64,000 nucleotides of DNA from Hydrolagus affinis (lineage: Eukaryota), in the NCBI GenBank assembly GCA_012026655.1, contig JAAILG010001296.1, positions 1-64,000 on the forward strand, read 5' to 3'. The position numbers were made by a program, and so were the translations under genes. The notes beneath the pieces were generated by a model that saw only the letters and a program-made list of their open reading frames with translations, did no database searches and was not told the DNA's origin. Shown piece by piece: positions 2,236 through 64,000 of this stretch. Positions within the stretch are counted from its first letter, which is position 1. Each line of letters opens with the position of its first letter.

Positions 2236-2277
2236 TGTAGTTATGGCCTGAGACTCTCTGTGTCGCTGTCTACCAAT
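2236..2277 (+). promoter_or_regulatory. Pcdh promoter conserved sequence element (CTCF-type CGCT box) plus CCAAT
   Basis: TGTAG-N12-ACTCTCTGTGTCGCT-GTCTA-CCAAT, about 245 bp before the ATG at 2504. The motif recurs before other variable exons. Confidence 0.85.
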
Positions 2278-7760: not shown

Positions 7761-7802
7761 TGTAGTTATTGGGCGAGACACTTTGTGTCGCTGTCTACCA
7801 AT
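7761..7802 (+). promoter_or_regulatory. Pcdh promoter CSE plus CCAAT
   Basis: TGTAG-N12-ACACTTTGTGTCGCT-GTCTA-CCAAT, about 277 bp before the ATG at 8061. Confidence 0.85.
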
Positions 7803-11574: not shown

Positions 11575-11617
11575 TGCAGTTATTATTACAATACTCTCTG
11601 TGTCGCTGTCTACCAAT
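11575..11617 (+). promoter_or_regulatory. Pcdh promoter CSE plus CCAAT
   Basis: TGCAG-N13-ACTCTCTGTGTCGCT-GTCTA-CCAAT followed by a C-rich tract, about 297 bp before the ATG at 11896. Confidence 0.85.
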
Positions 11618-18339: not shown

Positions 18340-18381
18340 TGCAATTATTGGCTGGGACTCTTTGTGTCGCTGTGTACCAAT
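18340..18381 (+). promoter_or_regulatory. Pcdh promoter CSE plus CCAAT
   Basis: TGCAA-N12-ACTCTTTGTGTCGCT-GTGTA-CCAAT, about 297 bp before the ATG at 18660. Confidence 0.85.
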
Positions 18382-21522: not shown

Positions 21523-21581
21523 GTAGGACAACTGAACACAGACTGGCGTTCTTCAGAACCTTACATAGCGTCAAAGATCAG
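21523..21581 (+). CDS. cPcdh constant exon 1 (59 nt)
   Basis: tttacAG|GTA GGA...ATC AG|gtattg, encoding VGQLNTDWRSSEPYIASKI. The NTDWR motif, 59-nt length and phase 0-2 match alpha/gamma constant exon 1. Confidence 0.92.
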
Positions 21582-22031: not shown

Positions 22032-22117
22032 CTCCCAGTACTTGGAAGAAAACCTAGCCCAAGATGAAATTAAACGAGAATTCAACAGGCGACACACGGC
22101 TATCACTTCAGCAGCAG
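22032..22117 (+). CDS. cPcdh constant exon 2 (86 nt)
   Basis: gtttttcccAG|C TCC CAG...GCA GCA G|gtgagt, encoding (S)SQYLEENLAQDEIKREFNRRHTAITSAA. Phase 2-1 joins exons 1 and 3 in frame. Confidence 0.88.
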
Positions 22118-43000: not shown

Positions 43001-45104
43001 TTGACAATCTATATGAAGAGCCTTGGTCAACAATGGGCTTCATTGTTCCTGGGTTAGTGGGAGAGTAAATTAGCCAACGTCTGTTGATTACTACATCAGA
43101 ACTCCTGATGGAAGGTGTATGTATTAGTGCATGTCCAGTGAGGAAAGAAAAGGGTTTGATTGAATGACCCTCTCCCCACTCCATTTCCAGGAGCTTGCTG
43201 ACACTCAGTGTCAATGCATAGACATGAATAATGGGCAACTTGGATGAATTACTGTAGCATGCCACAAGAAAAGCTGAAATGCATACAGATGAGTCAGAGA
43301 GAAATTTGAGGCAAATCGGATGAGAGAAAACAAATCGAAACAACAGGAGATTTTCAGATCCTGAAAAGTCCAGCTAAAGCAAGATGGAATTTATATTGCT
43401 TTTTTTTCCCTCCAATTTTGTGAAAATTTGACTTTGTGTTATATCATTTAGGACTTGCCGAGTTTCAGCAATACATCATTTATTTTCCTCATTACTTATG
43501 CAGTGTTACTGAGCACGTACTGAGTAAAATGGTGATAAACCATAAAGCTCACATTTACCAGTGTTTTACATGGAAATATCACATTATGGTCCCAACAACC
43601 ATTTACAAGCAGCTCCTTAATTATTAAAGACCAACATCTTTTAACAACAGATTTGAGATCTCTTTAAAGATGATTTAGTACAAAGAACATAGAAACTGCA
43701 AGTGTGTTCACTTTCTGTTTCTTTCTCCATTTTTCTGCCCCACACTGCATGGAAAAACAATCTTCCCCAGATCTTAAGAAGCTTTTTAGCTACAGATACA
43801 TTTTGTATCGAAAAGGCAGTTTACAAGCAGAGCTTGACAAGAGATTCAGCTTCCTATTGAAACTGACAGAAGCTAATGTTAAACAAAAGGTTTTATAGCA
43901 ATCAATGAACAACATCATTCAAATCACAGATTTCAAATAAGAAAGTCAATTTCTGCTGCGACTATTTTTTAAAGGTAACATTTTAATAATAATCCTTGCA
44001 TTTGACATAGCGGCTCATCAAAGAGCCTCACAGAATATACTGTAAAGTGGATTTGATAGAGTCTCATGCTTAGGAACAATTAAATTTTATGTAGTCATAA
44101 TTCACCATGTCATATTCTACTAAAAAGTAAACATAATTTTCTCTTAACCATCAGACTCCAGTGGTGGACTGCAGTTTCTGCTGATTCTATGACTGGACCT
44201 GTATCAGCAAGAAAGATGCCACATACAATTTCATTCCGCCATATTATTTTATTCTTTGTAATTCGATTTAATGCAACTCATTCAGAATTCATTGTACCAT
44301 CACCACAATTAGACATAAAACTAATTAATATATTTCTCAAATGACCAGTTTCAAATCCACAAACATTTTGTGCTTCCAGGCATGCTTCCAGTATTCCTGT
44401 AAGGGCAGTTATTTGTGTTAGCCTCAAATAAGATTGCACTGTTAATTTATCCAATGAACCAAAAGTAATTTCCATTTTTCTTTTATACATTTCTCTGAAT
44501 CAAAGCTCACAATATTTAGAAAAGCAAGTTCATAAATATATTATCAAGAAACTGCATATTTTTAAAAGCAACTGAGAAAATTAGGGATGAAAGAAATCTT
44601 TAGCCAGGCATTCTTTGCTCTGATATGTAGCAATAACTCAGAAAGAAAATTTAAATTAATCTGATAATTGCAGATGATGTTTATGCTCACTAAATTTAGC
44701 AATTAAATTTACTGTATGGGGAGTTGGATATAATTATCTTTTTTTCTGACATTTAATTCATTTAAAGATTCAAAAAAGATTTGGCAATCAAAAACCTGGA
44801 GTTTTTTTTAGTTCCTTCTGTTTACATTATCTCTGTAACCTGGGTTTGAATTTATTCCAGTCTGATAGGATACAATATAATGTCTCAGCAGTAAGGGTCT
44901 CAGTGAAATTAGTTCAGGTTATTTCAGCAAGCCTCAATGGACATAATAGTCATGTACAAAACTGTGAACTAATTTGGTACCAAAGAGGGTGAATGCATCC
45001 ATCGCACTTCAGGTCTTAAACAAAAATGCCTGTTGTGTTTGATAGGAATTCTAGAATTGTATTGCTGATGTATTCTGTGATAAAGAACATGTCACAATTT
45101 AAAT

Positions 45105-45310
45105 TTCAGGCACGAAACTTTGCAACAGTCTTCCTCTATCCCTCTATCTTGCCCCCACTCCTTCCACATCTCCAGGTCCCTGCTGAAAATCTTCCACTTC
45201 AACCGTTCCTATGGTCTCTTCTTCCCCCAAGCTCAGTGTCATACTTCATTACTGTCAATTGCTCTGGGACACTACCCTGCATGAGGAGGCGCTATATTGT
45301 TATTGTTGTC
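45105..45310 (+). mobile_element. L2-like 3' tail just upstream of constant exon 3
   Basis: C/T-rich L2-like 3' end finishing CTGGGAC...GAGGCGCTATAT(TGT)n. Confidence 0.55.
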
Positions 45311-45353
45311 ATGAACTGTAATAGTCTTGACTTTATTTCATTTCTTTTAATAG

Positions 45354-45631
45354 ATGCAGGATACATTGAAGCATCTCCGGATCTAGAAGATGGCATTCCT
45401 ACTTGGGTTCCACGATATGGACCACAGCAGGTTGAGCACCAGGAATCTGATGAGTATCAGCCCGGCATCTACATGGGAGGTAGTCCAGTCCGATTGCCCG
45501 CTAAACAGGACCAAGTGGCTAAACTGGACGGGCAGCAATCTGCCTCGTCCACCAAGAAAAAGAAGAAACGCAGCAAACGAACGGAAAAGAGGGAGAGCAA
45601 AGTTACCATTGAGGAGCCACAGAATGAGTAA
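45354..45631 (+). CDS. cPcdh terminal constant exon
   Basis: tttcttttaatAG|AT GCA..., phase 1, encoding (D)AGYIEASPDLEDGIPTWVPRYGPQQVEHQESDEYQPGIYMGGSP...KKKKKRSKR...PQNE*. It has RYGPQ, an IYxxGS motif and the Lys-rich tail of cPcdh constant regions. 59+86+278 = 423 nt = 140 aa plus stop. Confidence 0.92.
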
Positions 45632-48600
45632 TGCATCGTGTAATGACAATCTGAGAACTATCAGTATCCAGATCAGGGCACTAGGATAGACATAAGGGTT
45701 TTGCGAATTAAAATTAAAATCACTTTTTAAAAGAGGTATTGTACTTTCAATGCTTAACTGTTTTTCTTTGTTAAATTCCATTGACTCCGTAAGAGGGAAT
45801 CTCTCATCAGGACTTTGATGCCTGGATTAATCAATTCTCATCTCTTCTATATCCAACTGTAGCCAAATAAAGTCAATGGTAAGAACAAATGAAAAACAAA
45901 ATTAACAAAATAGCTTCTTGCTAATACAAAACAGCAGTAGACTGACCTACAATTAAGGCAATGCCCTTGTGTGACAAACGTATTAGCAATTTTATGCACC
46001 CTTAAGTGTCTTATCCAGGAACTGACCCACAGAACAGATTAATTGTACTATACATGTTTGAAGTGGAAAATTATGTATGATGTAAGTGAATATTGATTAA
46101 ATCTTGAAATAATAACAAGGGGATAACAATCAGAATTCATCTGAATGGAATGAAAACAAATGTACACAAAAATCTGAATCCTGTATTAAGCAGTAATTAT
46201 TTCCAGTGCCAATCTAGATGCAGTTTACTCCACAGAACCTAAATTAAATAGTTCTTGAACCAATGCATGTCATGCCAACCAAGCGGTTACATTTACACAG
46301 CTTATCCATGTCTCAATTAACCTTGGCCTGGATAGAATAAAAGCATGTGTTTGCCGCTTTTTCTCATGGTCTCCAAACAGCTGACTGTATACCTGTTGAG
46401 CATGGATCGCCCAGTAAACTGTCTCCAGCTACACCTTGTAGCAAAGTCAGGCTGGTTCTGTACTGCTTAATAGCCATATGAAATATATTGTGCTGTTCTC
46501 AAATCAGTAATCACAAAAAAGGTCAAAATTTGTTCAATCACCTGCGGCAAACTATGCATTTTTTTGTTACATTTGTACCAAAGGTGGCTTCCTTTCCCAA
46601 TAATGTCTAATGTAATCTTTTTATGCTTTAGTCTATTTTCAGATGTATTCTGTTTTGCATGTATAAGTAAACGTGATCAGGACAATCTTTACTATGTATG
46701 TGTTTATTGAGAACCAAACACTTCATCACTTGCGTTCTACAGTTTTAGAACATACTCCACACAAATAATGTGTACACATTTCTAACTAAAGTTTAGCTTC
46801 ATTTATATTTTGTAGCAAGTTATTTGAGTGGTAATCCTTTTTCAATAATCATAATCTTTGCATTTGATAAACAACAACTTGGATTTATATAGCGCCCTCC
46901 TCGCCGGAGACATTTCAAAGCACTTCACAGAATATATTTTAAAGTGGGCTGACTGCTTATTGTGAGTCTTTTACTGAAAGATTTTGAAACATTACTCCAA
47001 ACATAACCATGATGAAGTCAAAAGAATCTAAACATTGCATTTGAGCCCATAGAATAAGTTAACATACATGATTGTCCCTGAAACAATGGCACACACATTG
47101 GTTTGGCTTCTGTTGCAATGTTCTGGTAAAATAGCGATATAACATTAAACAACACTTACATCTAAAATAAAACAGACAGATCTGAAAATACTGGATCCAA
47201 ATAATACTTCAATTTGATTGCTTCCTCTCTGTTAAGACGTAGAAATCAAATACATTGGAACTGGAGCAGCTATATTGTCTATCAAAAAGAACATAAAACA
47301 ACAGAACAATTTGCACATCATGGGGACAAGGTGAAATAGTGCGTGAAAACGTTATCTTTTTCAAGACTTATAGACCATAGGTTCAATCCAAGCTAGATGA
47401 AATGAGTGATTATTATCCCTCTCAAAGTGAGCACCAACATTTCTACATCAATCGATTAAGAAAAGTCTCGCCCAATTGCAATTTTATACCCACAGCAAAA
47501 TGTTATTAATTCGAGCATCAATTTGTATTGATTTGGCTTTTTCATCCAGAGTAAGCTAACATAGGAGTACATGATGATGACCATGAAATAAAGAAAGCCA
47601 TCTTGCTCTGACAGGCAAAAAAAAATTATTTGACTGCTGCAAGGGCACGAGAAGAACTGAGTGGTTTGCAGTTAATTCCTGGACTACAAAAGCCAAAAAT
47701 CAGAAATATTCCACTCCCAAATTTTATCCTTGGTGCAAAATATCTGTGAATATTTCTCAATGAGACAATTGAACTATGTTGTGGGTTCCTGGGCTGAACA
47801 CCTACTGGACAGCTCACAATGTAAGATCACACGCAAAGATATATGGTGAGGCTTCAGAATGAGGTAGCATCTTTTGAAGCAGAGAATAGACAAGCCACTC
47901 TATGAGAATAAAGACTGACACTTTTTACAGTTCAGAATGTGTTGAACAGAAACATGGAATCATAATCATGTACTTTATGTTTAGTTTAAGAGATTTCTAA
48001 AAGCTAGGTAATTTTGATGCAGAATTATTAAATTGTACTTTCCTGACAGGTACACTCGATGTGTACACGATTAGATAGATTTCTTTTCGGAAATAATATT
48101 ATGGGATAATACATTATATCATTTAGACTTTGGTCTTCTTTCATCTAGCAATTCCTATATATGATTGTGTGAAGGATTCAGGAAGGGTTAGGTTCAAAAA
48201 CTGACTCTGTGATGAGGTCACACAAACTAAAATGGATTGATCCTATCCATTCTCTTATTGGAATGGAATTTTTTTTTTGGCAAATCTACCAGAATCTGTA
48301 TCTATAAGACAAAGAATCTATTAATTTTATAATATTATTCCACTTTTATTAAAATGATGCAACCCATCTGCAATCTACATCAGTTTGACTTGGACTGGGG
48401 CATGCAGAGCATTTTGGAGTGCACAGGCAACAAATTATTCTAATCAGTTGAGAGAGGTGAAATTTCAGATTATATCTAGAGGGATGCATTGATATATCTG
48501 GAAAATAATATTCAACTTGACATGCTCAGAAACTTCATTTACTTGTTAATCTTACTTTCAATTGTAAACTAGTCATTTCTGGATTAGCAATAGTGGGAGG

Positions 48601-51600
48601 GGGGTGGGGGGCGGCGGGGGGATGTTGGGGGGAACTATCCAATAATGATTTGTCTTTGCTAGGTGTTACTTTGCTATAATTTATCTTCTTTTTGGTATGC
48701 TAATAAAGATAGATTCTTATCTGCTGAACCCAGCAGCATGTTCAATCAAGCGGAATGCAGTCATTATGCATTGATCCTTCAACTAATTTTGAGCTATTTT
48801 AAGTATCCCTTGACCTCCACCCGCTTCACCCCGCGGAGCTTTCCACTGATTTAAGTATTTTTAACGAGATGGCGAGAGAAGCAATGCTGAAAAAATGTCC
48901 TACATAAATTTGCACAGTTAATTACTAAATGTGGACTTAAAACTTAAAAGCTTATGTTTGTATATGGTTTATGCGTAAACACGTTCGCTCTGTGCATAGA
49001 ATCTGTAATATGCACTCCAAAATACAGACAGGCAAATGCCATGTTTATTTACATATTCTAGTCTTGCTGTATAACACTGAATAAATGTCATCATTAGCTC
49101 AATGAGATGGCTTGTATCCTACGCATCTCAATTTCTACACAAATGATTGCTAGTTTTACTTAATGTAGTGATAAATAGAAAAACAAAGAGTAGACGGTAA
49201 AAATTTTAATTTGGAAACAAACAGCTGATTAATGTATCTTTATATTTTAAAATACTGATTGGCCTAATTTCCATTCTTTTCACTGTTATTGCTTTTTTTT
49301 TCGTTATTATGACTACTTGTTAAACCACTTAGGCATTAAGTGGAATAACTGATTTCTAACAAGAATTCTTTCTGCATTTGGTGGAAATGATTGTAAAATG
49401 CAAATTTGGTTTTATGTTCAGAGCAACGCATTAGCAACATTATAGATGGATTCCTAAAACACATGCCTATAAAAGTAACGCATCATTTGCACTGTATCTT
49501 TCTAATTTACTTATTTAGAGATTATATACATTTATCTGAAACAGCAAATGCGAATAGACCTTCTTCCCAACCTGAATAGCCAAAACACCAAATACTGAGT
49601 ATTATTTCTGAACCTCAGATGCTTACAAACTGGAACACTGTAATGTAAATGCAAATTCTAATATCAAGCAGATCAGTTACCATGTAATATTATTCAGATT
49701 GCATTGTCAGCAGAAAAATGCATGTATTTGTACATCAATGTTAATCTACGTGGTGTCATATGTTGCTTTGAGTCAGACCAAAAATGACAACTTACAGTTT
49801 CTGGTCATTGTGTTTTATTTACACTGAGCAAAACATATCCATTGCCACAATGAAATCTATAAGTAATTAGTATAAGCATCTGGATGAATAGTTTGAAATG
49901 ATAATTACAAAAATACAGAGTAATATGTAATGAAATGTACAGGGAAGTTACCTTTGGAGCAGGTAACCAGTGTTTCAAACCATGCTAATCATAAATCTAA
50001 GATGAATTTATGAAATAGTTCAAAGGATTTTTTTAAATCCTAAACCAAGTTGTTTTAAATTACAGAAGATACATTCTTGCCATACCTTGTGCCTCCTTTC
50101 CTAATCCAGGACTAGATTTATTTGGCAAATAATAATAGCATTGAACTGGACTATTGTATCCTGCTGATCTCTTTGGGGTTAACAGTGAGAATTGGCCTGA
50201 GTCCACTGGGTTTCATCCCAGTTGCTATTCAGTGGCACTTTAAAATGTGCTGGGTATGAATGTGGGACAGTACATGACCTGATATAGCTGTGATTTCCCT
50301 CTCTCCCAAACTCCTTACAAACTCAAGAGTCTTATTGTCTTGCTGACATTCAAGATCCCATCTCAAACCATAAAGTGCAGTCACTGGGCTAAGCAACCCA
50401 AAGTGTGGCTTCTAACTGTGGTAATGTATACCATGACCTGACCTGATCGTGTGTTTTCAGGGGTGAAGGAGAATAAACATAAGAAGGTAATTGATGTTTC
50501 CAAGATAAGTTTAGTATTTGTAGAATATCTAAACTGAAAAAGCAAAGTATGTGAAATGCAATTGCATAAAAATAACTAATTGTATTGAATTAAAGGTTAC
50601 ACTGTGCAGAAAAAACTCAACATCTATAATAGTCAATAATCTCAACAATTATAATCTTTTAAAGAAACGAAAATCAATGCTTGAAATGAACCTTGGATTA
50701 TTTTTATTTCAACATTGTTTCTTTTTGCGTTTAGTTTGTTCCATTCAATTATGTAAAAATATTACAAAAATACTTGGATAATGTTACATAATTACTTGTG
50801 TACTTGTGTAAATCATGTTGCAGTTGTTTTGATTTTCTTTCCAGGTTAAGCATTTAGTTCACAAATCTACCTGTAGAATGAATATTATACTGTTGCTTTA
50901 TGTGTGTTAGCATTCAAATCTGCAACCATTTACTTAAATAAAGTGTATTATGCACATGCATGATAAAAAATTCAGAAGAAATTTTGAACTGAAATGATAT
51001 GACTTCTTGAATGATGACTGCTCATAAACGAACACCAGTTTTATATTTAACATTTTTTAATATAAAAACGCCCATGTAAATACATTAATTAAGCATTTCT
51101 TTAAATAGTTTGTAACCTGACACAATTGTGAGTGGAAAGAAAATACAATAAATTCTTTTAAAATGTTCATTGTTGTCTTTTTTCTGGAATATAAGATGTG
51201 ATTTCAACATTCATGGCATGAATTGAAGAAAACATGAGGTTGAACAATTAGCCCCATTGAGCCTTGAAGGAGACTTCTGTGGTACAACTTGTATGTTTTA
51301 AGGATATTCACAGTTAATAAGCTAATGTAAAGGATATGTACCCATTTCCATCAAAAGATGCACTTACCCCCTAAAAGAACTGATGGGATTTATTGCATAT
51401 TCACTGTACATATTTGATTATTGTTGTTGATCAATTGATCAGCTGTCAAACCATTTTTGGCAGACTTATCCCAACTTTTACATTGTACCTTACTTTCTGT
51501 CAGGATGAAGCAATTCCTCTCCCAATGCACCATTCAATTTGTGCCATTGTTTTGCAACTTCAGACATTTCAGAGTCGATTTGCCATTTGTGCCGCTTAGC

Positions 51601-51849
51601 AACAGAGCCTGTTTTCATTTTCAAAAATAAAAGAAAACTCCAAATGCAATTTACCAATAATTTTCCTTGTGTGACATTTTCCCTAAAGCGTGATTTCACC
51701 CCGAATCTAGAGGAACTGACAATTCCACAATAATACTAAACCACTCACTTCATGGAATACAACAATAATAATCCATGCGTTTCATATAGTGGCTGCCTTA
51801 CTACCTCTTTGAGACTTCTCAAAGTGCCTCACAGAGTACACTAGTACTT

Positions 51850-52052
51850 ATAGAATCATAAAATGTTATGGCACAGAAGGTAGTCATGTGGCCCATTGTG
51901 CCAGCTCTTTGAAAATCTGTCCAATTAGTCCCACTCCACCACTCTTTCCCCATAGCCTTGCAATTTTTTTTCCTTTCAAAGTATATATCCAACACCCTTC
52001 TGAAAGTTGTTATTGAATCTACCTCCACCAGCATTTCAGGCAGTGCATTCTG
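51850..52052 (-). mobile_element. CR1-like LINE 3' end
   Basis: The minus strand reads NALPEMLVEVDSITTFRRVLDIYF, with a TTCTATGATTCTAT-type terminal repeat. Confidence 0.75.
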
Positions 52053-54505
52053 AAATTGTCCCTTATTTCTGCAAAAGTAGTTCTGCAGAATTATAATTCC
52101 TTTGCTATGAATTGGTAGCACTAGTTAGCATTAGACACATATCCGCTGAAACATCATTAAGCTGTTTCATTACTGTAGTATTGTATGGAACATTTCACAT
52201 GAAAAGACATTTCGAAATACCGTGACCTTTCAAAGCACCATGTGTTTATAACTCATGACATTCAGTCGCTACCACTATAATTGTAACCTCACTCTTGTGC
52301 CATGGATTTGACTGGGGAGAGAAGAAAGATGTGACTCCCTCCATGAGTGTCACCATATGAGAGTGTGGTATGGCTGTGAATGAAACAATCAATTCCCCTT
52401 GATGCAATCAACAAATTCAATTGGCTTTGGAGTCAAAAACCATTGCAAAGATAAAAAGAAGAAGGAAAAAAATGATTTATTTGCACATCACAGAACAAAT
52501 CGAAAGCACTTCGGGGGGAAATGAAATGAAAACTCATCTAAGGTACATCTAGTAGAAGATTCCACATCACATTCTGGCAGAGGTAAAAATGACAAGTTCA
52601 GGGGAAAACGCAGAAAGCACCTCTGTGATCTCAGTAGCTCTGATTTTACCTGTAGGGATCACTTTTTAACAAAAAATTACATTTATATAGTGCCTTTCAC
52701 GTCATAAGCACGTCCCAAAGATACTCCATTAAAATTGCTCAGGAATCATAATATATGAATCTAAATTTTCTCCATCTTGCATCTCACCAGATTGGCTCCA
52801 TCCAAAGGGATTATGTGTTGTACGCAAGCACGTTGTCCAAATCGTGATCATCTCACAAAATTAATGCTTGTTCTAGACATTCTCGATCAATTTCAGCTCC
52901 ACTTGAAACTTGAATAATTCTACTTGTAGGAATAGAATATTTTGCTTCGGTTGTTTCCCTGCAAGCCTCAAGACAGTAACAGTGGCAAACTTTTGCCTTT
53001 TATCATACGTGCACACCTAACTTCTTCTCTCTTGGCAATGTCCAATCAAAACCAATTTTGATCAAATGCCGACTTGTACCTTAGATATTAGCTTAGGATT
53101 CAAGGAGCAAGGAGTCAGACACTCCGTTTCCTTGACAACAGGGCTAAAATCCTTGTGCAGAATTGATTCCTGAGGTGTATCTGATAAACATTCACGTTCA
53201 ACCTAACAGTTTTCACAGGAGTTATGTGTGTTACAATTGAAGGGGTTTCAAAAGAGAGCAAGATTATTTCTATTTCAATTCTCCCTATCAGCCAAAAGAG
53301 TTATACCACAACAGAGAAACACTAGGAGAAAATGTTATAGGTGCAATTCGTTCATTTACAGCAACAATGCATTGCACGGAATTATATTGTTATTATTTGC
53401 CTCCAACGATTGTATGCAATATTTACCAATCTGTGTTGTGCAAGGTAAAACTTGCATTCTCCTGGGAAACCATATTAAGTTTCAACCAAGTTCCGATTTT
53501 AGAACCAAAGTTTGCTGGGCCAATTACAAAAGTGCACAGAAAGTTTCATGTACTCCAGATACTTTCAAGAAGTCTATTAGTTTATCGACGACAAAAGTAC
53601 TTTGAATACGATTGCTGTAAAACACAATTACCTCACCAATTCCATGCCGCAGATATGCACATCTCACTCAGATCCAAACATTCAAAATAATCCCCAGAAT
53701 TATTTGGGTTACCGTTTCCAGCTGCATCTCACTTGGCAACTAGGCTGCATTCATTCTAAGTGACAACAATCTATTTCAGATTGAGTGTTAACGTCTTTTT
53801 CTTCATAGATAAAGAGATAAACATATTTTTACGTGTTTAATTTTAATTAATTTGCTCTTTGTTGTATTTTTTCAATCAGAACCGCCGTTTCTACCACTTC
53901 ACCACTGTTTACAACTCCCGGTGAACATTATTGACAGAGAAATAAGCCTTCAATCTGCATTTCCCTCTTCAAAGGCCCCATTGCTTGCTGCTTAGATTCG
54001 TCTTTTATTTATAAGATAACACAGCGGAATCCCATCAACATAAATTTCAACCAACCACAAATGGGCAATCCAGGCCATAAATGTACGTTTTAATATATAT
54101 AAAACTGTTAGACGAAATGATAGAAAAAAGCAGTAGGCATACTTAAGGGATGACTTTGTTTCCTTTGCTTATTATCCAGTATTGAGTGCAGAATTAATTC
54201 TCTCCCCCTCCGGGAATTCTGCCAAAGGTCGGATGAAAAATATTCCAAGGCTCATTAAGTTTGGACATTCGCTAAGAACTCCGGGAGGCAATTTTCACGC
54301 GAGTGCACAATAATGAGTTTAATAAGTTGACTCCAAGAAAACACACACATATATATTCAGAATACTGCCGAACATGCAGAAAGAATACTGGCAGTTTAAT
54401 AGCTATATAGTAATTTCGCTTTGGGTAATGTGTTGTACAAGCAGAATAGCACTTATTGATCGCTGAAAAGTTTGAATTTCAAAGCACTTTTAAATTCCTC
54501 CTTTT

Positions 54506-54605
54506 NNNNNNNNNNNNNNNNNNNNNNNNNNNNNNNNNNNNNNNNNNNNNNNNNNNNNNNNNNNNNNNNNNNNNNNNNNNNNNNNNNNNNNNNNNNNNNN
54601 NNNNN
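54506..54605. other. Assembly gap (100 N, true size unknown)
   Basis: Run of exactly 100 n. Confidence 0.99.
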
Positions 54606-54779
54606 TGCACCGTAGAGTGAAGCATTAATTCCTCACTTTGAAAACTACCGTGAAGCATAAACCAGAATAGCGCTATCTATATATGTGCTATTGTTGTTGG
54701 AGAGGTGTGGGGGAGGGGGGTCCTTAAGTGAAGCTGAATCTTTCTTTGCATTAAACTGTTACGCGTTGAATCTCTTGCA

Positions 54780-54805
54780 GCTGCTGTCCGCTACTCGGTG
54801 CTGAA
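54780..54805 (-). promoter_or_regulatory. Non-canonical (gapped) REST/NRSF binding element
   Basis: The minus strand reads TTCAGCACC-GAGTAGC-GGACAGCAGC: a perfect left half-site and a strong right half-site with a 7-nt rather than 2-nt spacer. Confidence 0.65.
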
Positions 54806-54865
54806 ATGTGAGCGGTACTTAACAAAAAACCCTGCACAACAACACACACAAGCCAATCCACCTCC

Positions 54866-54918
54866 ACACACACTCACTCACATACACACACACACATTAC
54901 ATACACACACGCGCGCGC
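54866..54918 (+). repeat. Imperfect (CA)n microsatellite ending in (CG)n
   Basis: cacacacactcactcacatacacacacacacattacatacacacacgcgcgcgc. Confidence 0.9.
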
Positions 54919-55241
54919 CTGTAGCCTAATTAAAGTACAAATCGGCGTTACAAGAGAGCATTACATTCCTTCCCGGGTCGATGTCTGGAGAACAGATTGA
55001 GATCGGCGCTCCAAAAGAATCCTCTTCCCCACCTCCCTAGCTTGATCATTTCTCAGGCAGCACAGAATCTGAACAACTGAATGTGTTTCGCAACGCACGG
55101 GAACTTCTCCTAAAAGTGGATAGCTACCAGTCAATAATATCTGTCTCCCCCACCACCATCACCCACCCCTTCAACCTCTCTCTGATCAATACTCACAAGA
55201 ACAAGGGAGATATATTTTACCCTCACCTGCGGTTGTGGAAA

Positions 55242-57812
55242 ATGTTTACTGGATGGAGAAAGGGGACACTAGCCAGGCAAGTGGTGTGTTTTATCGCCGT
55301 ATCCTTCATCGGCGACTTGATTTCTGCCCAGATCCGCTATTCGATTCCCGAAGAGTTGAAACACGGCGCTTTTGTGGGGAACATTGCTGACGATTTGGGT
55401 TTAGATATCCGAAAACTCTCAGCCCGAAGGCTGCGCATCGTTTCCGGGGCTATCAAACAATACCTGGAGGTGAACTTAGGCAACGGCATCTTGTTTGTCA
55501 ATGAAAAGATAGACAGGGAACTATTGTGTGGCGAAGGAATTACCTGCTTTCTGCACCTGGAGGTGATCATCGAAAATCCGCTGGAGCTTTACCGAATCGA
55601 GGTGGAGATTCTGGATGTGAATGACAATTCCCCGGTCTTCTTGAGGAAGGAGCTCGAGTTGGAGATCATAGAGTCGGCTGCGCTCGGCACTCGCTTCCCC
55701 CTGGAGAGTGCGCACGATCCAGATGTTGGCAGCAACTCCGTCCGCACCTACCGACTCAGCCCCAATGAACACTTCATCCTGGATGTAGAGACGCGCAGCG
55801 ATCGTAGCAAATTCGCCGAACTGGTGCTGGAGAAACCGCTGGATAGGGAACAACAGCGCAGTCACCACCTGATCCTGACCGCCATTGACGGGGGGGTCCC
55901 GGTGAAGTCTGGCACGGCTCTGGTCAGCATTCTGGTCCTGGACGCTAATGACAACGTGCCTGTCTTCGAGCAGTCCGTTTACAAAGTTAGCTTGTTAGAA
56001 AACACGCCCAAAGGCACACGAGTCGTGAAACTCAGCGCCAGTGATTTGGACGAAGGCTCCAACAGCGAAATAGTGTATTCCTTCAGTAGTCATACTCCGC
56101 CTAGTGTCCACCAACTGTTCAGTGTGGATCCCAATACGGGTGAAATTAGAGTCAATGGTATTGTTGACTACGAGGAAGCATCTGTTTATGAGATTTATGT
56201 GCAAGCCAAGGATAAGGGCGGCCCATATGCAATCCCCGTCCATTGCAAGGTCCTAGTGGAGGTAATTGATGCCAATGATAATGCCCCAGAAGTGGTATTG
56301 ACCTCGCTGTCCAGCCCAGTCCAGGAAGATGCTACACCCGGAACTGTGATCGCTCTCATTAGCGTTACAGACCAAGACTCTGGTAAAAATGGCCAAACAA
56401 ATTGTAGGATAGGCCAGAACCTTCCATTCAGACTCCAAACCTCCTTCAAGAACTATTACACTCTCGTGACCGCCGATACTCTAGACCGAGAGCGTGTCTC
56501 TGAGTACAATATCACAATTACAGCCACTGACATGGGAACTCCTTCTCTGTCCACCCAAAAATCTATAGTCCTTAAGGTCTCAGATGTGAATGACAATGCA
56601 CCAACATTCTCCAAACCTTCCTACACAGTTTATATCATGGAAAATAACGCTCCCGGAGCCGCCGTTTGCTCTGTATCTGCACTTGACCCCGATTTGAATC
56701 AGAACTCCTACTTGTCCTATTCCATCCTAGATAAATCCATCCAGGGGTTGTCGTCCAGAACCTACGTGTCCATTAACTCCGATAACGGCAATATTTACGC
56801 GTTAAGGTCCTTCGACTACGAGCAACTCAAAGGGTTTCAGATCGAGATCCAAGCCCAAGATGCCGGGTTCCCACCACTCAGTGGCAAAGCGCATGTCAAC
56901 GTCATTATATTGGACCAGAACGACAACGCTCCGGTCATCTTGTCCCCACAACCCAACAATGGTTCCGCAGCGTTAGAGACGATCCATCGGTCTGTAGAGC
57001 CAGGTCACTTGCTGACCAAAGTCAACGCCGCGGATGCCGATTCGGGCAAGAATGCACGGCTGTGTTATCAGTTGCTCCAAGCCACCGATTCGACGCTGAT
57101 TAACGTGGCGCTGTACACTGGAGAGGTTAGGACAACCAGGCGCTTTGGGGACAATGAGGCCCGCAAGCAAACGTTGCTGATCCTCGTGAAGGACAACGGA
57201 CAACCTCCGCTTTCAGCCTCCGTTACCATTATCCTTTCAATCGTGGACAGTATCACGGAGCCTATGCCTGATGAGGTCGCTGACTTGTCTACCAAAGCAG
57301 AGCACACGTCCGACCTCACGTTCTACTTAATTGTCACCCTGGGGTCCATTTCGTTCGTCTTTCTGCTGGCCATCATTATCGTGGCTGCCACCAAGTGCCA
57401 CCAATGCAGAAATAATGTCCACGATTACAGCTGTCCCTTGGGACATTGCCCATGTCTCCAGCGAGTTAATTCGACTGATGTCTTGAAAACATCGAAACTC
57501 AACCTTCAAGTGACCACCAACTCCAAGGTGCCCCCTGAGTTTCTGGAGGTTGGAGGGAGTGGTCACCTCCCTTGTACCTACTATTACAAGGTGTGCCTGA
57601 CTCCTGAATCCGCCAAGAGCGATTTTACTTTTCTCAAACCATTCAGTCCTGCAACCCCGAGCGACAACAACAGGAAAAATATCGACCCACAGGAGACGCC
57701 CTGGCAGAAACAGGCCACAAAACCTCTCAACAATTACCTGTCACCCACGAAGATCAACCGCAAAGCTATTGAATCTCGCAGGGTAGAGTCGAGTAGGCCT
57801 CCATCCCACCAG
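55242..57812 (+). CDS. cPcdh variable exon B1 (857 codons), C-type-like, first exon after the constant region and gap
   Basis: First in-frame ATG at 55242 ([20 protein letters not shown]), QIRYSIPEE, six EC repeats, TM and [21 protein letters not shown]. Donor CAG|GTGAGA, phase 0. Confidence 0.95.
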
Positions 57813-58495
57813 GTGAGACCTGAGCTCACTTGTGATTTTGTTTACTTAGAAGATTTTTTATTTTAATTATTCATTTCCATGTAGTTTACATGTTAAACGT
57901 ACCTCTGCAAATCTTCCTGATTGCATTACCATGAGCCGAACTTTTTGACTTGCCTTTGGGTGCATTCATAACCTCTGCTTTATACATTATGCATACCTAA
58001 TGTTAATCGCTAAGATGATGTTTAATTAATCCTTGGAGTACCAGATTTCACTTGAATTGATAAGACATCTGGGTTTGCTTCCACTATCTATCATTTTTAA
58101 TGATATAAAGTGAAATACTCTACCATTTAAGCATAACAGAGGTGGAAGAGGGTAAATTGAAGAATTGCAATCTGCAATCGATATCATTTTGAATGTGTAC
58201 AATATGTAGTCTTTTTAAAGAGCTTGGTTCAATGTGTTTGATTGGACCGTCTGCTATTTTTAGATGGCGAATTCTTCCCATGACATTTTAACATGAGAAA
58301 TCCGATTGTCCTAATGAGTTGTCTCCTTGCAAATAGTGAATCGACGTAAGGCAGTGCGTTGAGCTGCTGTTCTTCTGATAGAGAATAAGAAATAATGAAA
58401 TCAGATCGTTCGACGCTACAGGATAATTTGGAATGTGTAGTGCAGCACAGGTATCAAAGTAGGGTTTCACAGATGCCAGCACGGGTTGGAGAAGT

Positions 58496-58700
58496 AAAAG
58501 CAGACATGGCTGGGAACACTCAGCAGGCCAGGCCGCATCTATGGAGAGAGGAAAGCGAGTCAATGTTTTGGATCCACGACCCTTGGTTCTGACATTGACT
58601 CACTTTCCCTCTCTCCATGGATGCTGCTTGACCTGCTGAATGTGTCCACGGATTTCTGTTTTTGTTTCAGACTTCCAGTACTGTACCTGCAGTATTTCGC
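58496..58700. mobile_element. Second Penelope-like palindromic element, centre deleted
   Basis: Arms CTCAGCAGG..GCATCTATGGAGAGAGGAAAG.GAGTCAATGT and ACATTGACTCACTTTCCCTCTCTCCATGGATGCTGCTTGACCTGCTGA match the 33.3-kb element. A more decayed copy lies near 41995-42190. Confidence 0.7.
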
Positions 58701-61157
58701 GTTGCGTTGCAGGAGTGTTAGGTAAGGAGTAGAAACAGCGCGCCGAATAGTGGCAGAGTTAGGGAATTTTACAAGGAATGAAATAAAAACTGCGCCTCCA
58801 ATAAATCTTAAACTATGATAATTCTACTAATTCGAGATATTCAAACGACGTGAGTACAGCATTCATCATGTGGAATTAGTGTGTGTCAACTGCGCTGAAA
58901 GTGTAGTGACGATTCTGTATATTTAAGCAAATATCTTCTCCGTATGTATCCACGCTATTTAATAAATTGCGACATACGTCAGCTCCAAGATATAGTTTTC
59001 AGACACATTAATGATTAAAATAATTGGTCATTTGAGCATTAAATGTGAAACTTTTCAGTGGAAACAGTAGAAACGCAAAACAACACAATCCATTATATCG
59101 GTAAAACAAATATCCGAACTTTCCAAGTGTAATTGATCCCAGATACAATTTCAGCAAGTTACATAACACTGGATAATAATAATAATGTACACGGACTACA
59201 TATCATTCACTCTGGCATATCTACGGTGTCACGCAGGCTCCGAAATTCTGTGCTGTGGATTTGGGCCGAATAGCTTGTGAATAAACTCTGCACCTGATCA
59301 AGGTTTCAACGATGAAGGGGTGGAATTGGAATTGACCTCAAAACGGATTGCATAGTTTGGGATTGTTTTGATAGAAAAATACATAACAACTAAAGAGAAG
59401 TCCAGGGTTTTTATGATATACCTTAATACAACAATTAGTAACAACACATGTATATTAATATGGCGCGTTTCGAGGTTGGAACACCTGTCAATGAGATGGG
59501 GCAAGGCGTCCCCAATAGATTCCAGGCAGATGGATCTATTGGAATGTATATTGACATACACCACAGAACGTGATTTAATGTTCAGTGAGAAGGTATCTAA
59601 TTTCCGCAAGGACAGAATGTTTATTTAGCACTTTTTATGTACCAGTGATATTCTGAATCTACATAAAACATCCCAACATTTTAGAATCTCAGGCGGTGTC
59701 TGTTTTTATCAGACAGGACTATGTAGTATTGCAATATTTCGGTGATTAAGATAAATTTGTGCATTCAAGTGTCGTGATTCTGCTGGAAAGGGCGCTTCTC
59801 GGCATACAATCTATTTTGGAAATAAAAGTAATAATGAAAAAAAAGTACGCCTCTAGATGTAATAGTGCGCCTTGGTAATGATTATATCACAGCACAAACT
59901 TGTGTTGTTGGTTTTTCATGGCTAATTTGTTTAAGAGAGTGCTGGATATTACAATGCCACATACTATATGTTTAATGGTCGTATTGCGAACGGGTCCCAG
60001 CTGGTGGGAATATTTACTATTCAATTTCTGACGAATTAGATCTCACTAGCCTGGCTTATAATATTGCAAACTATTTCGGGTTAGATTTTTATACAGTTTT
60101 CTGCTCGTAGCTGTCTAATTATATCTGAGTCTAGGTGGGAATAATTTTGTGCAAATATAAAAAATAGTAAATTAAAATAATTTGGAACAACTTCACTGAC
60201 AGAACGTAGCGTGCCGAATCAACCTTCCAACCTTCCACTGACTTTAAAATACACTGATGCGATTAAACTTGATGACGGAATCAGGTCACATTAACCGTGA
60301 AACAATTGCACCAATAAAAATACGAGAAGCCAATCAACAAGTATTTATCTGTCTTCCTTTTAATCATCCCAATCCATTCTTAAGCTTCTGGTGTATCCGT
60401 TGTGTGAAGATGTGTGTATTACTTCATCTCGCTTTAATATTAATGCATTGTCCTATAATTTGGGATCCCTCGGTTGAAATGAAGAGTCGTCAATAGTTGA
60501 CTTGTCTATCTCTCTTTATTTGAAGAAAAAACTTCAATACGACTATCCTATCCTGATCAACTATTCTAGGCAGTATATGGGGAGGGAGTGTGGATGGGAG
60601 GGGGATGGGGGGATATCTGACAGTAGAAGAGGGGGGCATTGTACATGGGCCTCTGGCAAGGTCTGTGGCCGTGAAGGGTATGTGTGTGTGTTTGTTTTGG
60701 GTGGGGGTGGGTGGGTCTATGTCTATTATTCTATTCTATTGTATTCTATTCAACTCTAGGAAACTTATTCCACCAATAACTAACATTTATTCACAGCAAG
60801 TTTCAACAGTGGGGGGAGGGGGGAGGGGCTGTGGTGGGTGGGGGGGTCGGGGGAATCTACTGTTGTCAACCTTCCCAAGCCAGTGAGCAACCTTTTAAGG
60901 TTGGGGAGTTCAAAACCAGACACAGTGCTACAAGTGAAACTCCACATAACTTTAACATCACATCTTTGCTTTTGTATTTCTGACTACATCCCGAAAATGA
61001 CCGCCCAGTCATTTTGACTGCGCCATATGTTGGATAGCTAACGTAAGGAAATTAATAATTAATAGCCAGATGAATTCAGTCAATTTGCACAACATTAAAT
61101 GTAAATAGTAATATGCCATTCAGCAGCGGCAGTATTGCTTTAAGAACGGTTGATTTG

Positions 61158-61194
61158 ATTATTGGTCAATCGCTTTGTGTCACTGACGACCAAT
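61158..61194 (+). promoter_or_regulatory. Divergent Pcdh promoter CSE plus CCAAT
   Basis: ATTGG..TCGCTTTGTGTCACT-GACGA-CCAAT, about 315 bp before the ATG at 61491. The CGCT box reads CACT. Confidence 0.7.
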
Positions 61195-61490
61195 CAGGTG
61201 AAGAAATGTATTCCGCGATCCCTTAACACGCCCCCTTCCCATCGCCAACCTCTGCGCAGAATCAGTGCTCATTATTATTCCAGGTTTTCCATTCAACTCG
61301 GAGGATGGGCCTCAAATACTCTAAGGAGATTTGTACAATTACTTCTGGGCATTATGACCAACACAGGCCGGCCTTTCACTCAGAAGGCGTCTATTCTGGA
61401 AGCGGGAGGTAACGAATCACAATATTATTTGATACATGAGTAATTATCGCGCCCCTCTATCAGCGCTTCTCGTGAGGCTTTGTTGCAGAA

Positions 61491-63965
61491 ATGGCTTGTT
61501 GGATGGATCATGGGGTGTCACGCTGGCAAGCCCTGTATTTTATTCTGATCTACGTTTCGGATTGTGTTTGCGGAGACATCCGTTACTCGATTCCCGAAGA
61601 GTTAGACCGTGGGGCCTTTGTGGGAAATGTCGCCAAAGATTTGGGATTGAACGTGAAACGGCTGGGCGCCCGCAAGTTCCGGATTGTGGCCGATCACGGG
61701 AAACAATACCTGGATGTGGATGGACAAGGGGGGACATTGTTCGTTGATGAGAGAATCGACAGGGAGCGGCTGTGTGAACAAAGCCTGGCTAAGTGCGTGT
61801 TGGAGATGGAGGCTGTGGTTGAAAATCCCCTCCATCTGTACCGTATTGAGGTTGAGATTGTGGACGTGAACGACAACTCACCGGCGTTTCAAGGCAGCGA
61901 GTTTCGCTTAGAAATCTCGGAGACGGCTGCCCCGGGAGCTCGCTTTCGGCTCCAGAAAGCGCACGACCCCGACTCGGGTACCAACAGCGTCCGCTCCTAT
62001 CACCTGAGCGACAATGATCACTTCTATTTGGAACTACAGACTGAGAGCGAACAGGGAGTCATCCCGGAGTTAGTCCTTCAACGGCCGTTGGACCGAGAGG
62101 AACAGCCGACTCATCAATTAACTCTGACTGCAGTTGATGGCGGGATCCCAGAAAGATCCGGAAGCACCCGTATAGTTATCAACGTCTTTGATGCCAATGA
62201 TAACTCGCCCGTTTTCGTTCAGGACGTCTATCAGGTCACCACCACCGAAAACGTGCCCAAAGGTTATTTGATAGTGAAAGTGAATGCGATAGACGTGGAC
62301 GAAGGTTCGAACGGTCAGGTAATCTATTCCTTTGGCGACTACACGCCGGACAGAGTGCGCAAACTGTTTCACTTGGACTCTCAAGCCGGGGAGATCACTG
62401 TAACTGGCGCGTTAGACTTTGAACAAGCCGAGGAGTATGATATTTCAGTACAAGCTAAAGACATGGGTCTATTTCCGGAGCCAGTGTACTGCAAAGTTCT
62501 AGTGAAGGTCACGGATGTTAATGATAACAGCCCAGAAATATCGCTAACCTCGCTTTCAGGTCCCATCCAAGAGGACGCGGCCGTGGGAACGGTGGTGGCT
62601 CTTTTTAAAGCAACGGACAGGGATTCTGAAGAGAGAGGGAACGTTTATTGTCACATTAGCCCAAACATCCCCTTTAAGCTGGAAAGCTCATTTAATAACT
62701 ATTACACGGTGGTGCTGAATGGTCCGCTTGATCGGGAGCAAGTGGCCGACTACAATGTGACCATGACATGCAGGGATGGCGGATCGCCTCCCCTCTCCGC
62801 CAACCAAACCATCGCGGTTCAGGTCTCGGATACAAACGATAACGCGCCACGCTTTACGCAGCCAGCGTTCACCGTGTACTTAATGGAGAATAACGCCGTG
62901 GATACGTCCATTGGCTCTGTCTCCGCTTTCGACCCAGATTTCAGCGAGAATGGCAGGCTGCGGTACTTTATTCTGGACAATACCATCCAGGAAATGCCTG
63001 TCTCCACACTCCTCCTCCTCCATCCGGACAGTGGAGTCCTGTCAGCGCAACGCTCCTTTGACTACGAGCGCCTCAAGACTTTTGCCGTCAACGTGGGAGT
63101 CAGCGATGGCGGGTCGCCTGCTCTCAGTAGTAACGCCACTGTGAATGTGGTCATCGTGGATCGGAATGACAATATCCCTGTCATCGTATCACCCCCTTCG
63201 AGTCCCCAATTCCCAGCAGAGGAGACGATGCCTTGGTCCTCTGATCCCGGTTATCTAGTTACCAAGGTTACAGCCACAGACGCCGATTCGGCGGAAAACG
63301 CCCTACTCACCTACCTGCTTCTTCACCCAACCGACACAAGCCTCTTCACTGTGGCTCCACAGACGGGAGAAATCTGGACCATCCGGAATTTGGCCAACAA
63401 AGACTCTCTCCAGCAGAAACTCGTGGTCCGTGTAAGGGACGACGGAAAGCCACCCTTATCATCTACAGTCACCATCAACGTGGCGGTGCTGACTGGTGGA
63501 ACCGTACATCTATCTGATGCCACCGCGTTGGGAAACCCGGGACTCTGGACCACTAATTTAAGATTTTATTTAATCATATCGTTTGGCACAATCTCACTTA
63601 TTTTTCTGGTGGTTATAATTATCCTCGGGGTTAAGGTGCACAGGGGTAGGAGTGGTGATGGCGATTGCACCAGTTGTTTTTTGGGCGCCTTACTCTGCTG
63701 CGAGCGGGGAAATTCGCCGCACGGAATTCAAAAGGCTAGTGTAAATATTCAAAGGCAACCAAATTACCCAGAGGTTTACGAGAGCGAGGCTTTTACTCAA
63801 ACATTACGCTACGGTGTGTGTCCAACTTTAGATTTGCCCATGAATGATTTAATGTTTCTGAAGTTGTACGGGTCAGCTGCCCCCACGATCAATGTCAAAA
63901 CGGGAACTTGTATGGCGAGTGACACTGGGAAGGCATCAAATTCTGCAGCCACTGATTTCCTTGAG
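61491..63965 (+). CDS. cPcdh variable exon B2 (825 codons)
   Basis: Signal peptide, DIRYSIPEE, six EC repeats and TM FYLIISFGTISLIFLVVIIILGV. Donor GAG|GTGAGA, phase 0. Confidence 0.96.
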
Positions 63966-64000
63966 GTGAGACCAGAGATATAAAAATAAGTGTAATGTTT

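What the first reader, a model, noticed from the sequence alone, without database searches (positions are those of the whole stretch)
54780..55242. Gapped REST element in the promoter of the one variable exon without a clear CSE
Seen: B1 lacks the TGTGTCGCTGTCTACCAAT cassette found 245-315 bp before the other five complete exons. At most a relic GTCGATGTCT lies at 54977-54986. B1 instead has TTCAGCACC-N7-GGACAGCAGC on the minus strand about 440 bp upstream, a CCAAT and a CA/CG repeat. Known: REST binds non-canonical sites with widened half-site spacing, and most mammalian C-type Pcdhs lack the CSE and escape stochastic choice. Inference: B1 is a C-type-like, deterministically expressed neuronal isoform gated by REST rather than by CTCF-based choice, and it sits unusually at the 5' edge of its block. 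The nearby gap could hide other elements.
Basis: partly seen in the sequence, partly recalled or inferred. Interest (0 to 1): 0.7.

Follow-up and report, generated by a model that had tools for sequence, protein, structure and literature searches.

The report
REST site recast from protocadherin CSE
In a chimaera-like fish, the first gene of a protocadherin subcluster carries a perfect gapped REST motif that is likely the altered form of the standard CTCF promoter element, which would link neuron-only silencing and random promoter choice to one ancestral DNA element.

Summary
The motif is real: exact TTCAGCACC-N7-GGACAGCAGC at 54780-54805 (minus strand), 437 bp before B1. B1 is the orthologue of elephant-shark protocadherin nu1 (92% identity). 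Spacers of 7-9 bp are about ninefold enriched over 4-6 bp in this genome (55 vs 6).

Of 50 exon starts examined, only delta1, epsilon1 and nu1 carry a gapped RE1 upstream, all on the same strand. The ordinary CSE cassette, read backwards, is itself an 8-bp-gapped RE1 with two mismatches. The delta1 and epsilon1 sites match the CSE consensus at 22/26 and 21/26 and keep its CCAAT. B1's site therefore most likely is its CSE homologue, shifted towards REST and away from CTCF.

B1 is not the only exon without a CGCT box: 12 other nu exons lack it too. RE1s occur at both stochastic and C-type mammalian genes, so determinism does not follow. A human reporter study found no repression from 7-bp gaps. 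No binding or per-cell expression was tested.

REST control of protocadherin clusters is known. CSE-RE1 homology was not found in the searched papers.

The parts
54797..54805 (-). RE1 left half TTCAGCACC (in register with the CSE cassette's 3' tail)
54790..54796 (-). 7-bp spacer; 8 bp and CCAAT-containing in delta1, epsilon1 and ordinary CSEs
54780..54789 (-). RE1 right half GGACAGCAGC; on the + strand it is the GCTGTC of the CSE, with the CGCT box reading TGCT
54754..54778 (+). 5' flank with residual likeness to the CTCF-side of the CSE cassette (degraded)
   Evidence: score -3.5, p=0.004 against random positions; exceeded by 1 of 32 unrelated gapped RE1s; typical CSE median 33.6
54777..54784 (.). 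E-box GCAGCTGC overlapping the RE1 right half (label recalled; nu1 only, not in delta1 or epsilon1)
   Evidence: sequence; function untested
54853..54857 (+). lone CCAAT box
54857..54922 (.). CA/CG microsatellite; epsilon1 also has a CA run between its RE1 and ATG
54977..54986 (+). CSE-core-like 'relic' with no module 1, CCAAT or tail; unresolved
55242..57812 (+). B1 variable exon, orthologue of Callorhinchus milii protocadherin nu1; splice donor GTGAG at 57813
54506..54605 (.). assembly gap of 100 N, more than 630 bp upstream of the ATG; not closed
2259..2277 (+). CSE of A1 (comparison)
7784..7802 (+). CSE of A2 (comparison; 3 mismatches from an 8-gap RE1)
11599..11617 (+). CSE of A3 (comparison)
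18363..18381 (+). CSE of A4 (comparison)
61176..61194 (+). degenerate CSE of B2 (CACT in place of CGCT)
21523..21581 (+). predicted constant exon 1 of the upstream subcluster (mu-type, inferred from position)
22032..22117 (+). predicted constant exon 2 of the upstream subcluster
45354..45631 (+). coding part of the last constant exon of the upstream subcluster; transcribed in RNA runs X13 and X14

Best explanation
B1 is the protocadherin nu1 gene, and the gapped REST motif upstream of it is likely B1's own copy of the CSE promoter cassette, changed so that it is predicted to bind REST rather than CTCF. SHOWN: the ordinary cassette in this genome has a TGCAGT module with an inverted CCAAT, then the CGCT-box core, a second CCAAT 25 bp after the first, and a conserved tail. 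On the minus strand the core, CCAAT and tail read as an RE1 with an 8-bp gap and two mismatches. Delta1 and epsilon1 carry the RE1-matching version with CCAAT still in the gap; nu1 carries it with a 7-bp gap and no CCAAT. All three have weak or lost CTCF-side modules. INFERRED: REST binds the site in non-neural cells and progenitors and keeps nu1, perhaps also neighbouring promoters, off. When REST falls in neurons the promoter is released without needing a CTCF loop or a CGCT-methylation switch, so nu1 would be set by cell type rather than by the CSE lottery. That last step is the least secure (about 35%).
For: Exact motif, with 7-9 bp spacers enriched genome-wide, 55 vs 6. Three of 50 exon starts carry a consensus RE1 within 1.5 kb upstream, all minus strand: delta1, epsilon1, nu1. 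A relaxed scan of 300,910 bp found 6 sites, 5 of them in the CSE register. A CSE matrix trained on 21 other promoters has its best 1-kb hit on the RE1 in all three (scores 9.5, 7.6, 5.6; maximum of 62 null windows -3.0). CSE tails differ from the RE1 left half at 2.71 of 9 positions at spacer 8, against 6.0-8.8 at the other 13 spacers. Delta1 matches the CSE consensus at 22/26 and epsilon1 at 21/26, and epsilon1 keeps the CGCT box. CCAAT occurs in the gap in 0 of 32 unrelated gapped RE1s. The nu1 flank outside the RE1 resembles the CSE (p=0.004; 1 of 32 controls higher). The epsilon1 and nu1 promoters align with their RE1s in register (score 71.5, shuffle maximum 52; 447 vs 459 bp from ATG). 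Each of the three genes has shark orthologues (SH-aLRT 100). REST ChIP-nexus gaps are 2 or 7-9 bp (PMC8096226). Gapped NRSEs from fish Pcdh promoters bind REST in EMSA (PMC2926608).
Against: No binding was measured. A human reporter assay found repression only with 8- and 9-bp gaps, not other spacings (PMC9903721, passages), and B1's gap is 7. For nu1 alone the homology signal is modest: the 5' module score of -0.3 is below the null maximum of 2.9, the delta1-nu1 alignment (53.5) does not beat shuffles (maximum 57), and the epsilon1 flank is not significant (p=0.08). The promoter alignments are partly driven by the RE1 itself and by CA repeats. The relic at 54977 lies at the usual CSE distance and is nominally non-random (p=0.004-0.006 in that slot). 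The tail also persists in 10 nu promoters that have lost the right half, so NF-Y flank preference (recalled) may explain part of its conservation. No NRSE was found in the fugu Pcdh1 cluster, which includes delta1 (PMC2926608). RNA runs X13 and X14 (one sample, tissue unknown) gave zero depth on B1 while the upstream last constant exon had depth 19-84.
Confidence: 0.6

Rival explanations
1. One reading: the RE1 is an independent element gained at B1, the 54977 relic is the decayed CSE, and B1 is a C-type-like, deterministically expressed isoform.
For: The relic core scores 7.1, higher than the core score at the RE1 (2.1), and lies 262 bp from the ATG. Mammalian alphaC2, gammaC4 and gammaC5 lack the CSE (PMC7811963). 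The EMSA primer list of PMC8096226 includes c1 and c2 promoter probes. B1 is slow-evolving and single-copy.
Against: The relic has no module 1, CCAAT or tail (whole-cassette score -38.9). Core scores of 7.6-10.3 also occur off-cassette in 3 other promoters. An independent gain does not explain the same-strand RE1 with CCAAT in the CSE register at delta1 and epsilon1. RE1s also mark stochastic isoforms (PMC8096226).
Confidence: 0.17
2. The element is a CSE/RE1 homologue, but in nu1 it is a decaying or weak site: the 1-bp loss (gap 8 to 7) left a motif that binds REST poorly or does not repress, and nu1 is driven by other elements.
For: PMC9903721 reports no repression at spacings other than 8 and 9. 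Nu1 has lost the CCAAT that delta1 and epsilon1 keep.
Against: Both halves are perfect after a long divergence from delta1 and epsilon1. Exact 7-gap sites number 8 in the genome, against 6 for gaps 4, 5 and 6 together. PMC8096226 reports 7-bp gaps as bound.
Confidence: 0.13
3. The site acts mainly as a long-range silencer for the nu array or the upstream subcluster, like the gapped NRSE in the mammalian HS5-1 enhancer downstream of the alpha constant exons.
For: It lies about 9 kb after the last upstream constant exon. None of the 12 other nu promoters examined has an RE1. One NRSE can regulate neighbouring Pcdh promoters in fugu constructs (PMC2926608).
Against: A generic CTCF scan (recalled consensus, up to 2 mismatches) found no site between 38358 and 57388, so there is no HS5-1-like flanking CTCF pair. 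The upstream subcluster was transcribed in X13 and X14 while B1 was not. This role is compatible with the best explanation rather than exclusive of it.
Confidence: 0.07
4. Chance motif with no function.
For: A low background of exact pairs exists (6 at gaps 4-6).
Against: About 3e-4 expected per window, and the motif recurs at two paralogous promoters on the same strand and in the same register.
Confidence: 0.03

Closest known systems
Non-canonical (gapped) RE1/NRSE sites in vertebrate clustered Pcdh loci (PMC2926608; PMC8096226)
   Same: Same half-sites, a gap within 7-9 bp, located in a Pcdh promoter. Five NRSEs were already predicted in the elephant-shark cluster.
   Different: The passages and sections I read do not tie NRSEs to the CSE; PMC2926608 says its canonical fugu motif does not overlap the CGCT element. 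Its Table S2 was unreadable and may list the nu1 site.
CSE / promoter CTCF site with CGCT box (PMC7811963; PMC3333863)
   Same: The ordinary chimaera cassette has the CGCT box about 250-300 bp upstream of the ATG.
   Different: Here it is flanked by two inverted CCAAT boxes 25 bp apart and a tail that completes a degenerate 8-gap RE1. In nu1 the CGCT reads TGCT and the cassette sits at -459.
Elephant-shark protocadherin nu1 (ABV59348), with paralogues delta1 (ABV59318) and epsilon1 (ABV59319)
   Same: 92% identity over the variable exon, first exon of its block, same splice position.
   Different: Its promoter DNA could not be fetched, so conservation of the RE1 between species is untested.
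Mammalian CSE-less C-type genes alphaC2, gammaC4, gammaC5
   Same: No intact CGCT box; a REST site is present; slow-evolving and not duplicated.
   Different: C-type genes sit at the 3' end of their arrays (PMC2764143 for alphaC2 and gammaC), B1 at the 5' end. Orthology is not shown; B1's best bony-vertebrate hits are delta-type.

Membership tests
Non-canonical RE1/NRSE | Left half TTCAGCACC and right half GGACAG in canonical order with the GG intact | tested here: met
   exact match
Non-canonical RE1/NRSE | Spacer in the REST-bound range (7-9 bp) | tested here: met
   7 bp; range from PMC8096226; genome enrichment
Non-canonical RE1/NRSE | Spacer in the range that repressed in a human reporter assay (8-9 bp) | tested here: not met
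   nu1 gap is 7; delta1 and epsilon1 are 8; PMC9903721
Non-canonical RE1/NRSE | REST binding and repression | not testable with these tools
   needs EMSA, ChIP or a reporter
Non-canonical RE1/NRSE | Conservation between species | tested here: inconclusive
   an X9 contig spans the site (54610-54856) with 3 substitutions whose places were not listed and 2 indels outside it; paralogue conservation met
Pcdh CSE (functional promoter CTCF site) | CGCT box with intact core | tested here: not met
   TGCT; core score 2.1 against a typical leave-one-out range of 13.3-28.6
Pcdh CSE (functional promoter CTCF site) | Upstream TGCAGT module | tested here: not met
   score -5.7 against a typical median of 16.8; p=0.11
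Pcdh CSE (homology by descent) | Same strand and register, with likeness outside the RE1 halves | tested here: met
   strong for delta1 and epsilon1 (CCAAT in gap; 22/26 and 21/26), modest for nu1 (flank p=0.004)
Protocadherin nu1 | One-to-one orthology with C. milii nu1 and first position after a constant region | tested here: met
C-type Pcdh (alphaC/gammaC) | Groups with alphaC/gammaC variable exons | tested here: inconclusive
   no verified C-type sequences were available for the trees; in PDB searches C-types rank high for both B1 and ordinary A4
C-type Pcdh (alphaC/gammaC) | Position at the 3' end of the variable array | tested here: not met
   B1 is first in its block
C-type Pcdh (alphaC/gammaC) | Biallelic, non-stochastic, cell-type-set expression | not testable with these tools
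   one search gives pooled depth only, tissue unknown

The most novel reading that the evidence does not exclude
The CSE, the CTCF site behind stochastic protocadherin promoter choice, and the gapped REST silencer are two states of one ancestral promoter cassette, two substitutions apart. The slow-evolving head exons delta1, epsilon1 and nu1 keep the REST-gated state of the ancestral single gene. Tandem copies tuned the same bases towards CTCF, creating the lottery, and REST and CTCF can compete for one footprint at intermediate promoters.
Probability: 0.22. Interest if true: 0.82.

Novelty: new variant of a known kind. Interest (0 to 1): 0.52.

Why it matters
How stochastic protocadherin promoter choice arose from an ordinary neural gene is an open question. 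A cassette in which the CTCF core doubles as the right half of a gapped REST site offers a short mutational path between the two modes. The locus also supplies a natural graded series: perfect RE1 (delta1, nu1), one mismatch (epsilon1 and the C1552:1940 CSE), ordinary CSE, and CGCT-less nu cassettes. That series can be tested directly by EMSA and reporters. It also predicts that the nu subcluster of chimaeras largely does without the CGCT switch.

Tried and rejected
Closing the gap: not achieved. The X9 contig starts only 37 letters before 54610. A CSE hidden there would be more than 630 bp from the ATG.

Shark or bony-fish promoter DNA: a metagenome scan found 394 pattern matches and no relative. 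No tool holds those genomes.

Expression: no RNA holder was listed. Raw RNA runs X13 and X14 were laid on 44001-64000 only, with no control on A1-A4 and tissue unknown, so B1's zero depth cannot tell REST silencing from 3' bias or low expression.

C-type affinity by PDB rank: not discriminating. The careful 79-row tree did not finish; only quick trees are cited.

HS5-1-like enhancer: no flanking generic CTCF motifs.

Mammalian CSE flanks: not obtained. The supplement of PMC3333863 was not searchable, PMC3529044 is not held, and the text search was uninformative.

The elephant-shark cluster paper (PMC2268768) is not held, and Table S2 of PMC2926608 is unreadable.

Two look-ups of earlier scan findings returned nothing.

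Rejected: 'B1 is the only CSE-less exon', and 'the first exon of every subcluster has an RE1', since the exon I infer to be mu1 (C5045:7963) has an ordinary CSE.

Full report
LOCUS. The window is G000:C1296:1-64000, from a 1.11-Gb fragmented genome. It holds six complete protocadherin variable exons, three predicted constant exons at 21523, 22032 and 45354, and a frameshifted exon just beyond the window. B1 (ATG 55242, donor 57813) is 92% identical to a Callorhinchus milii protein whose cluster contains 'protocadherin nu1'. Shark and ray orthologues are 71-79% identical; C. milii delta1 and epsilon1 and bony-vertebrate delta-type proteins are 62-67%; its window neighbours are 48-54%. The organism is therefore chimaera-like and B1 is the first nu exon. 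The label 'mu' for A1-A4 is inferred from position; no call named them.

OBSERVATION. All coordinates check. Exact half-site pairs total 141 for gaps 0-12 (100 listed), 55 for gaps 7-9 and 6 for gaps 4-6. This repeats the human REST pattern of 2 or 7-9 bp and never 3-6 (PMC8096226, passages). The B1 site is not a chance match.

CLUSTER-WIDE SURVEY. A search with B1's first 200 residues gave 63 matches. I fetched 28 contigs and located 50 exon starts, 45 with at least 700 bp upstream; the remaining matches (weak, partial or duplicate) were not examined. Only 3 of 50 have a consensus RE1 within 1.5 kb upstream, all gapped and on the minus strand: the delta1 orthologue (gap 8), the epsilon1 orthologue (gap 8) and B1 (gap 7). 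Twenty-nine of 50 have an ordinary CSE (21 non-redundant). Of the other 18, 12 group with C. milii nu8-nu17 and lack the CGCT core; 10 of these 12 keep two inverted CCAAT boxes 25 bp apart, as in the ordinary cassette. The last 6 are B3, epsilon2, a broken exon on C25546, C47837, and two exons with only 89 bp of upstream sequence. B1 is thus not the only exon without a CGCT box.

THE RE1 IS IN THE CSE REGISTER. On the minus strand the CSE consensus reads TTCAGCTCC, an 8-bp gap, then AGACAGCG: one mismatch in each RE1 half. Across 21 CSEs the tail differs from the left half at 2.71 of 9 positions at gap 8, against 6.0-8.8 at the 13 other gaps tried. The two systematic differences are A for T in the tail (3 of 21 have the RE1 base) and the first G of the GG pair (2 of 21). 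Delta1 and epsilon1 match the consensus at 22/26 and 21/26 and keep CCAAT in the gap; epsilon1 keeps the CGCT box. None of 32 unrelated gapped RE1s has CCAAT in the gap. A matrix trained without these three genes picks the RE1 as best hit in each promoter (gapped scores 7.6, 5.6, 9.5; 62 null windows, maximum -3.0). Because any RE1 would score on that matrix, I scored the flank outside the halves: nu1 p=0.004, delta1 p=0.006, epsilon1 p=0.08 against random positions; 1 of 32 control RE1s beat nu1. The epsilon1 and nu1 promoters align with the sites in register (71.5 vs shuffle maximum 52); delta1-nu1 also aligns in register but not above shuffles; delta1-epsilon1 does not. A relaxed scan of 300,910 bp found 6 sites, 5 in the CSE register, including two ordinary epsilon CSEs with an intact GG. 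Homology is strong for delta1 and epsilon1 and moderate for nu1 taken alone.

CAVEATS ON THE CASSETTE. The tail partly persists in 10 nu promoters that lost the right half, so NF-Y flank preference (recalled) may hold its first bases; paralogues are also not independent samples. The 54977 relic scores 7.1 on the core matrix (p=0.004-0.006 for that slot) but -38.9 on the whole cassette, and equal core scores occur off-cassette in three other promoters. It stays unresolved. Which state is ancestral is not determined.

PHYLOGENY. In quick trees (no bootstrap) nu1, delta1 and epsilon1 each group with shark orthologues at SH-aLRT 100 and have short branches. Together with bony-vertebrate delta they form only a weak group (82; 92 including C47837), which may reflect shared slow evolution. 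Holding nu1 with the other nu exons and B2 is rejected (p-AU 0.018). Kinship with alphaC/gammaC could not be tested: in PDB searches C-types rank high for both B1 and A4, and B1 is also closer to non-clustered Pcdh10/17/18/19.

EXPRESSION. In RNA runs X13 and X14 (one sample, tissue not given, 27% and 30% of reads examined) the last upstream constant exon had stranded depth 19-25 and 64-84, B1 had 0 in all five bins from 54673 to 58007, and B2 at most 0.55. This speaks against ubiquitous high nu1 expression in that sample and fits REST silencing if the tissue is non-neural.

MECHANISM. Shown: the motif, its register, the paralogue pattern and the degraded CTCF modules. From established work: REST binds gapped sites and represses Pcdh promoters in non-neural cells, and one site can act on neighbours (PMC2926608); CTCF binds the CSE and methylation of the CGCT box blocks it (PMC7811963, PMC3333863). 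Inferred: REST holds nu1 off outside neurons, and release in neurons does not pass through the CSE lottery. Against: only 8- and 9-bp gaps repressed in a human reporter screen (PMC9903721); REST sites occur in stochastic alternate exons as well as in all five C-types (PMC8096226); 12 other nu promoters also lack the CGCT box, so its absence cannot single B1 out; no NRSE was found in the fugu cluster that holds delta1.

WHAT I READ. PMC2926608: passages, sections 18 and 19, supplements 1-2 (Tables S1/S2 unreadable; S2 may already list this site among five elephant-shark NRSEs). PMC8096226: passages, sections 3 and 20, supplement part 1 of 2 (figure S4 sequences are images). PMC2764143: passages and section 7 part 1. 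PMC7811963, PMC4978886, PMC3333863, PMC9903721: passages only. PMC2268768 and PMC3529044: not held, nothing seen. Eight searches turned up no statement that the CSE overlaps or is homologous to a gapped RE1; subscription papers were not covered.

VERDICT. The element is real and belongs to a known kind, REST sites in Pcdh clusters. The likely new part is that the gapped RE1 and the CSE are one cassette, with the REST-matching form confined to the three conserved head exons. Determinism is unproven. Interest 0.52; new variant of a known kind.

Noticed in passing
L001 (C1296:65901-68336): The third nu-block exon, B3, is frameshifted near 66180 and 66685 (pseudogene or assembly error) and has a degenerate cassette without a CGCT box at about 65543-65590.
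   Followed up: partly
L046/L047, L050, L052, L056, L057, L063, L065: Twelve nu8-17-like promoters lack the CGCT core; 10 keep two inverted CCAAT boxes exactly 25 bp apart, which suggests NF-Y-driven, CTCF-poor promoters for most of the nu subcluster.
   Followed up: partly
L032:1916-1940 and L062:1932-1955: Two ordinary epsilon-type CSEs have a perfect RE1 right half and 1-2 left-half mismatches: candidate dual CTCF/REST sites.
   Followed up: partly
G000:C1552:5287-43528: Epsilon1 is separated from epsilon2 by about 36 kb with no variable exon found, whereas the other epsilon exons are 3-7 kb apart; epsilon2's cassette also lacks the CGCT box.
   Followed up: no
L059 (C47837:1118): A divergent variable exon of uncertain subcluster with neither CSE nor RE1 in the 1114 bp available upstream.
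   Followed up: partly
window 46669-50670: Stranded RNA reads continue past the last upstream constant exon in X13 (depth 2-6): readthrough or a long 3' UTR.
   Followed up: no
window ~44018-44049, 46870-46946, ~52685, 58500-58680: Short pieces of an abundant transcribed repeat that attract many partial RNA reads on both strands.
   Followed up: no
G000 genome-wide: Nine identical 9-bp-gap RE1s (spacer AGGGAAGCT) on different contigs suggest a repeat family that spreads gapped REST sites.
   Followed up: no
L048 (C25546:2979): A broken epsilon-type exon keeps an intact CTCF-side cassette and a tail close to the RE1 left half, with one base missing from its CCAAT.
   Followed up: no
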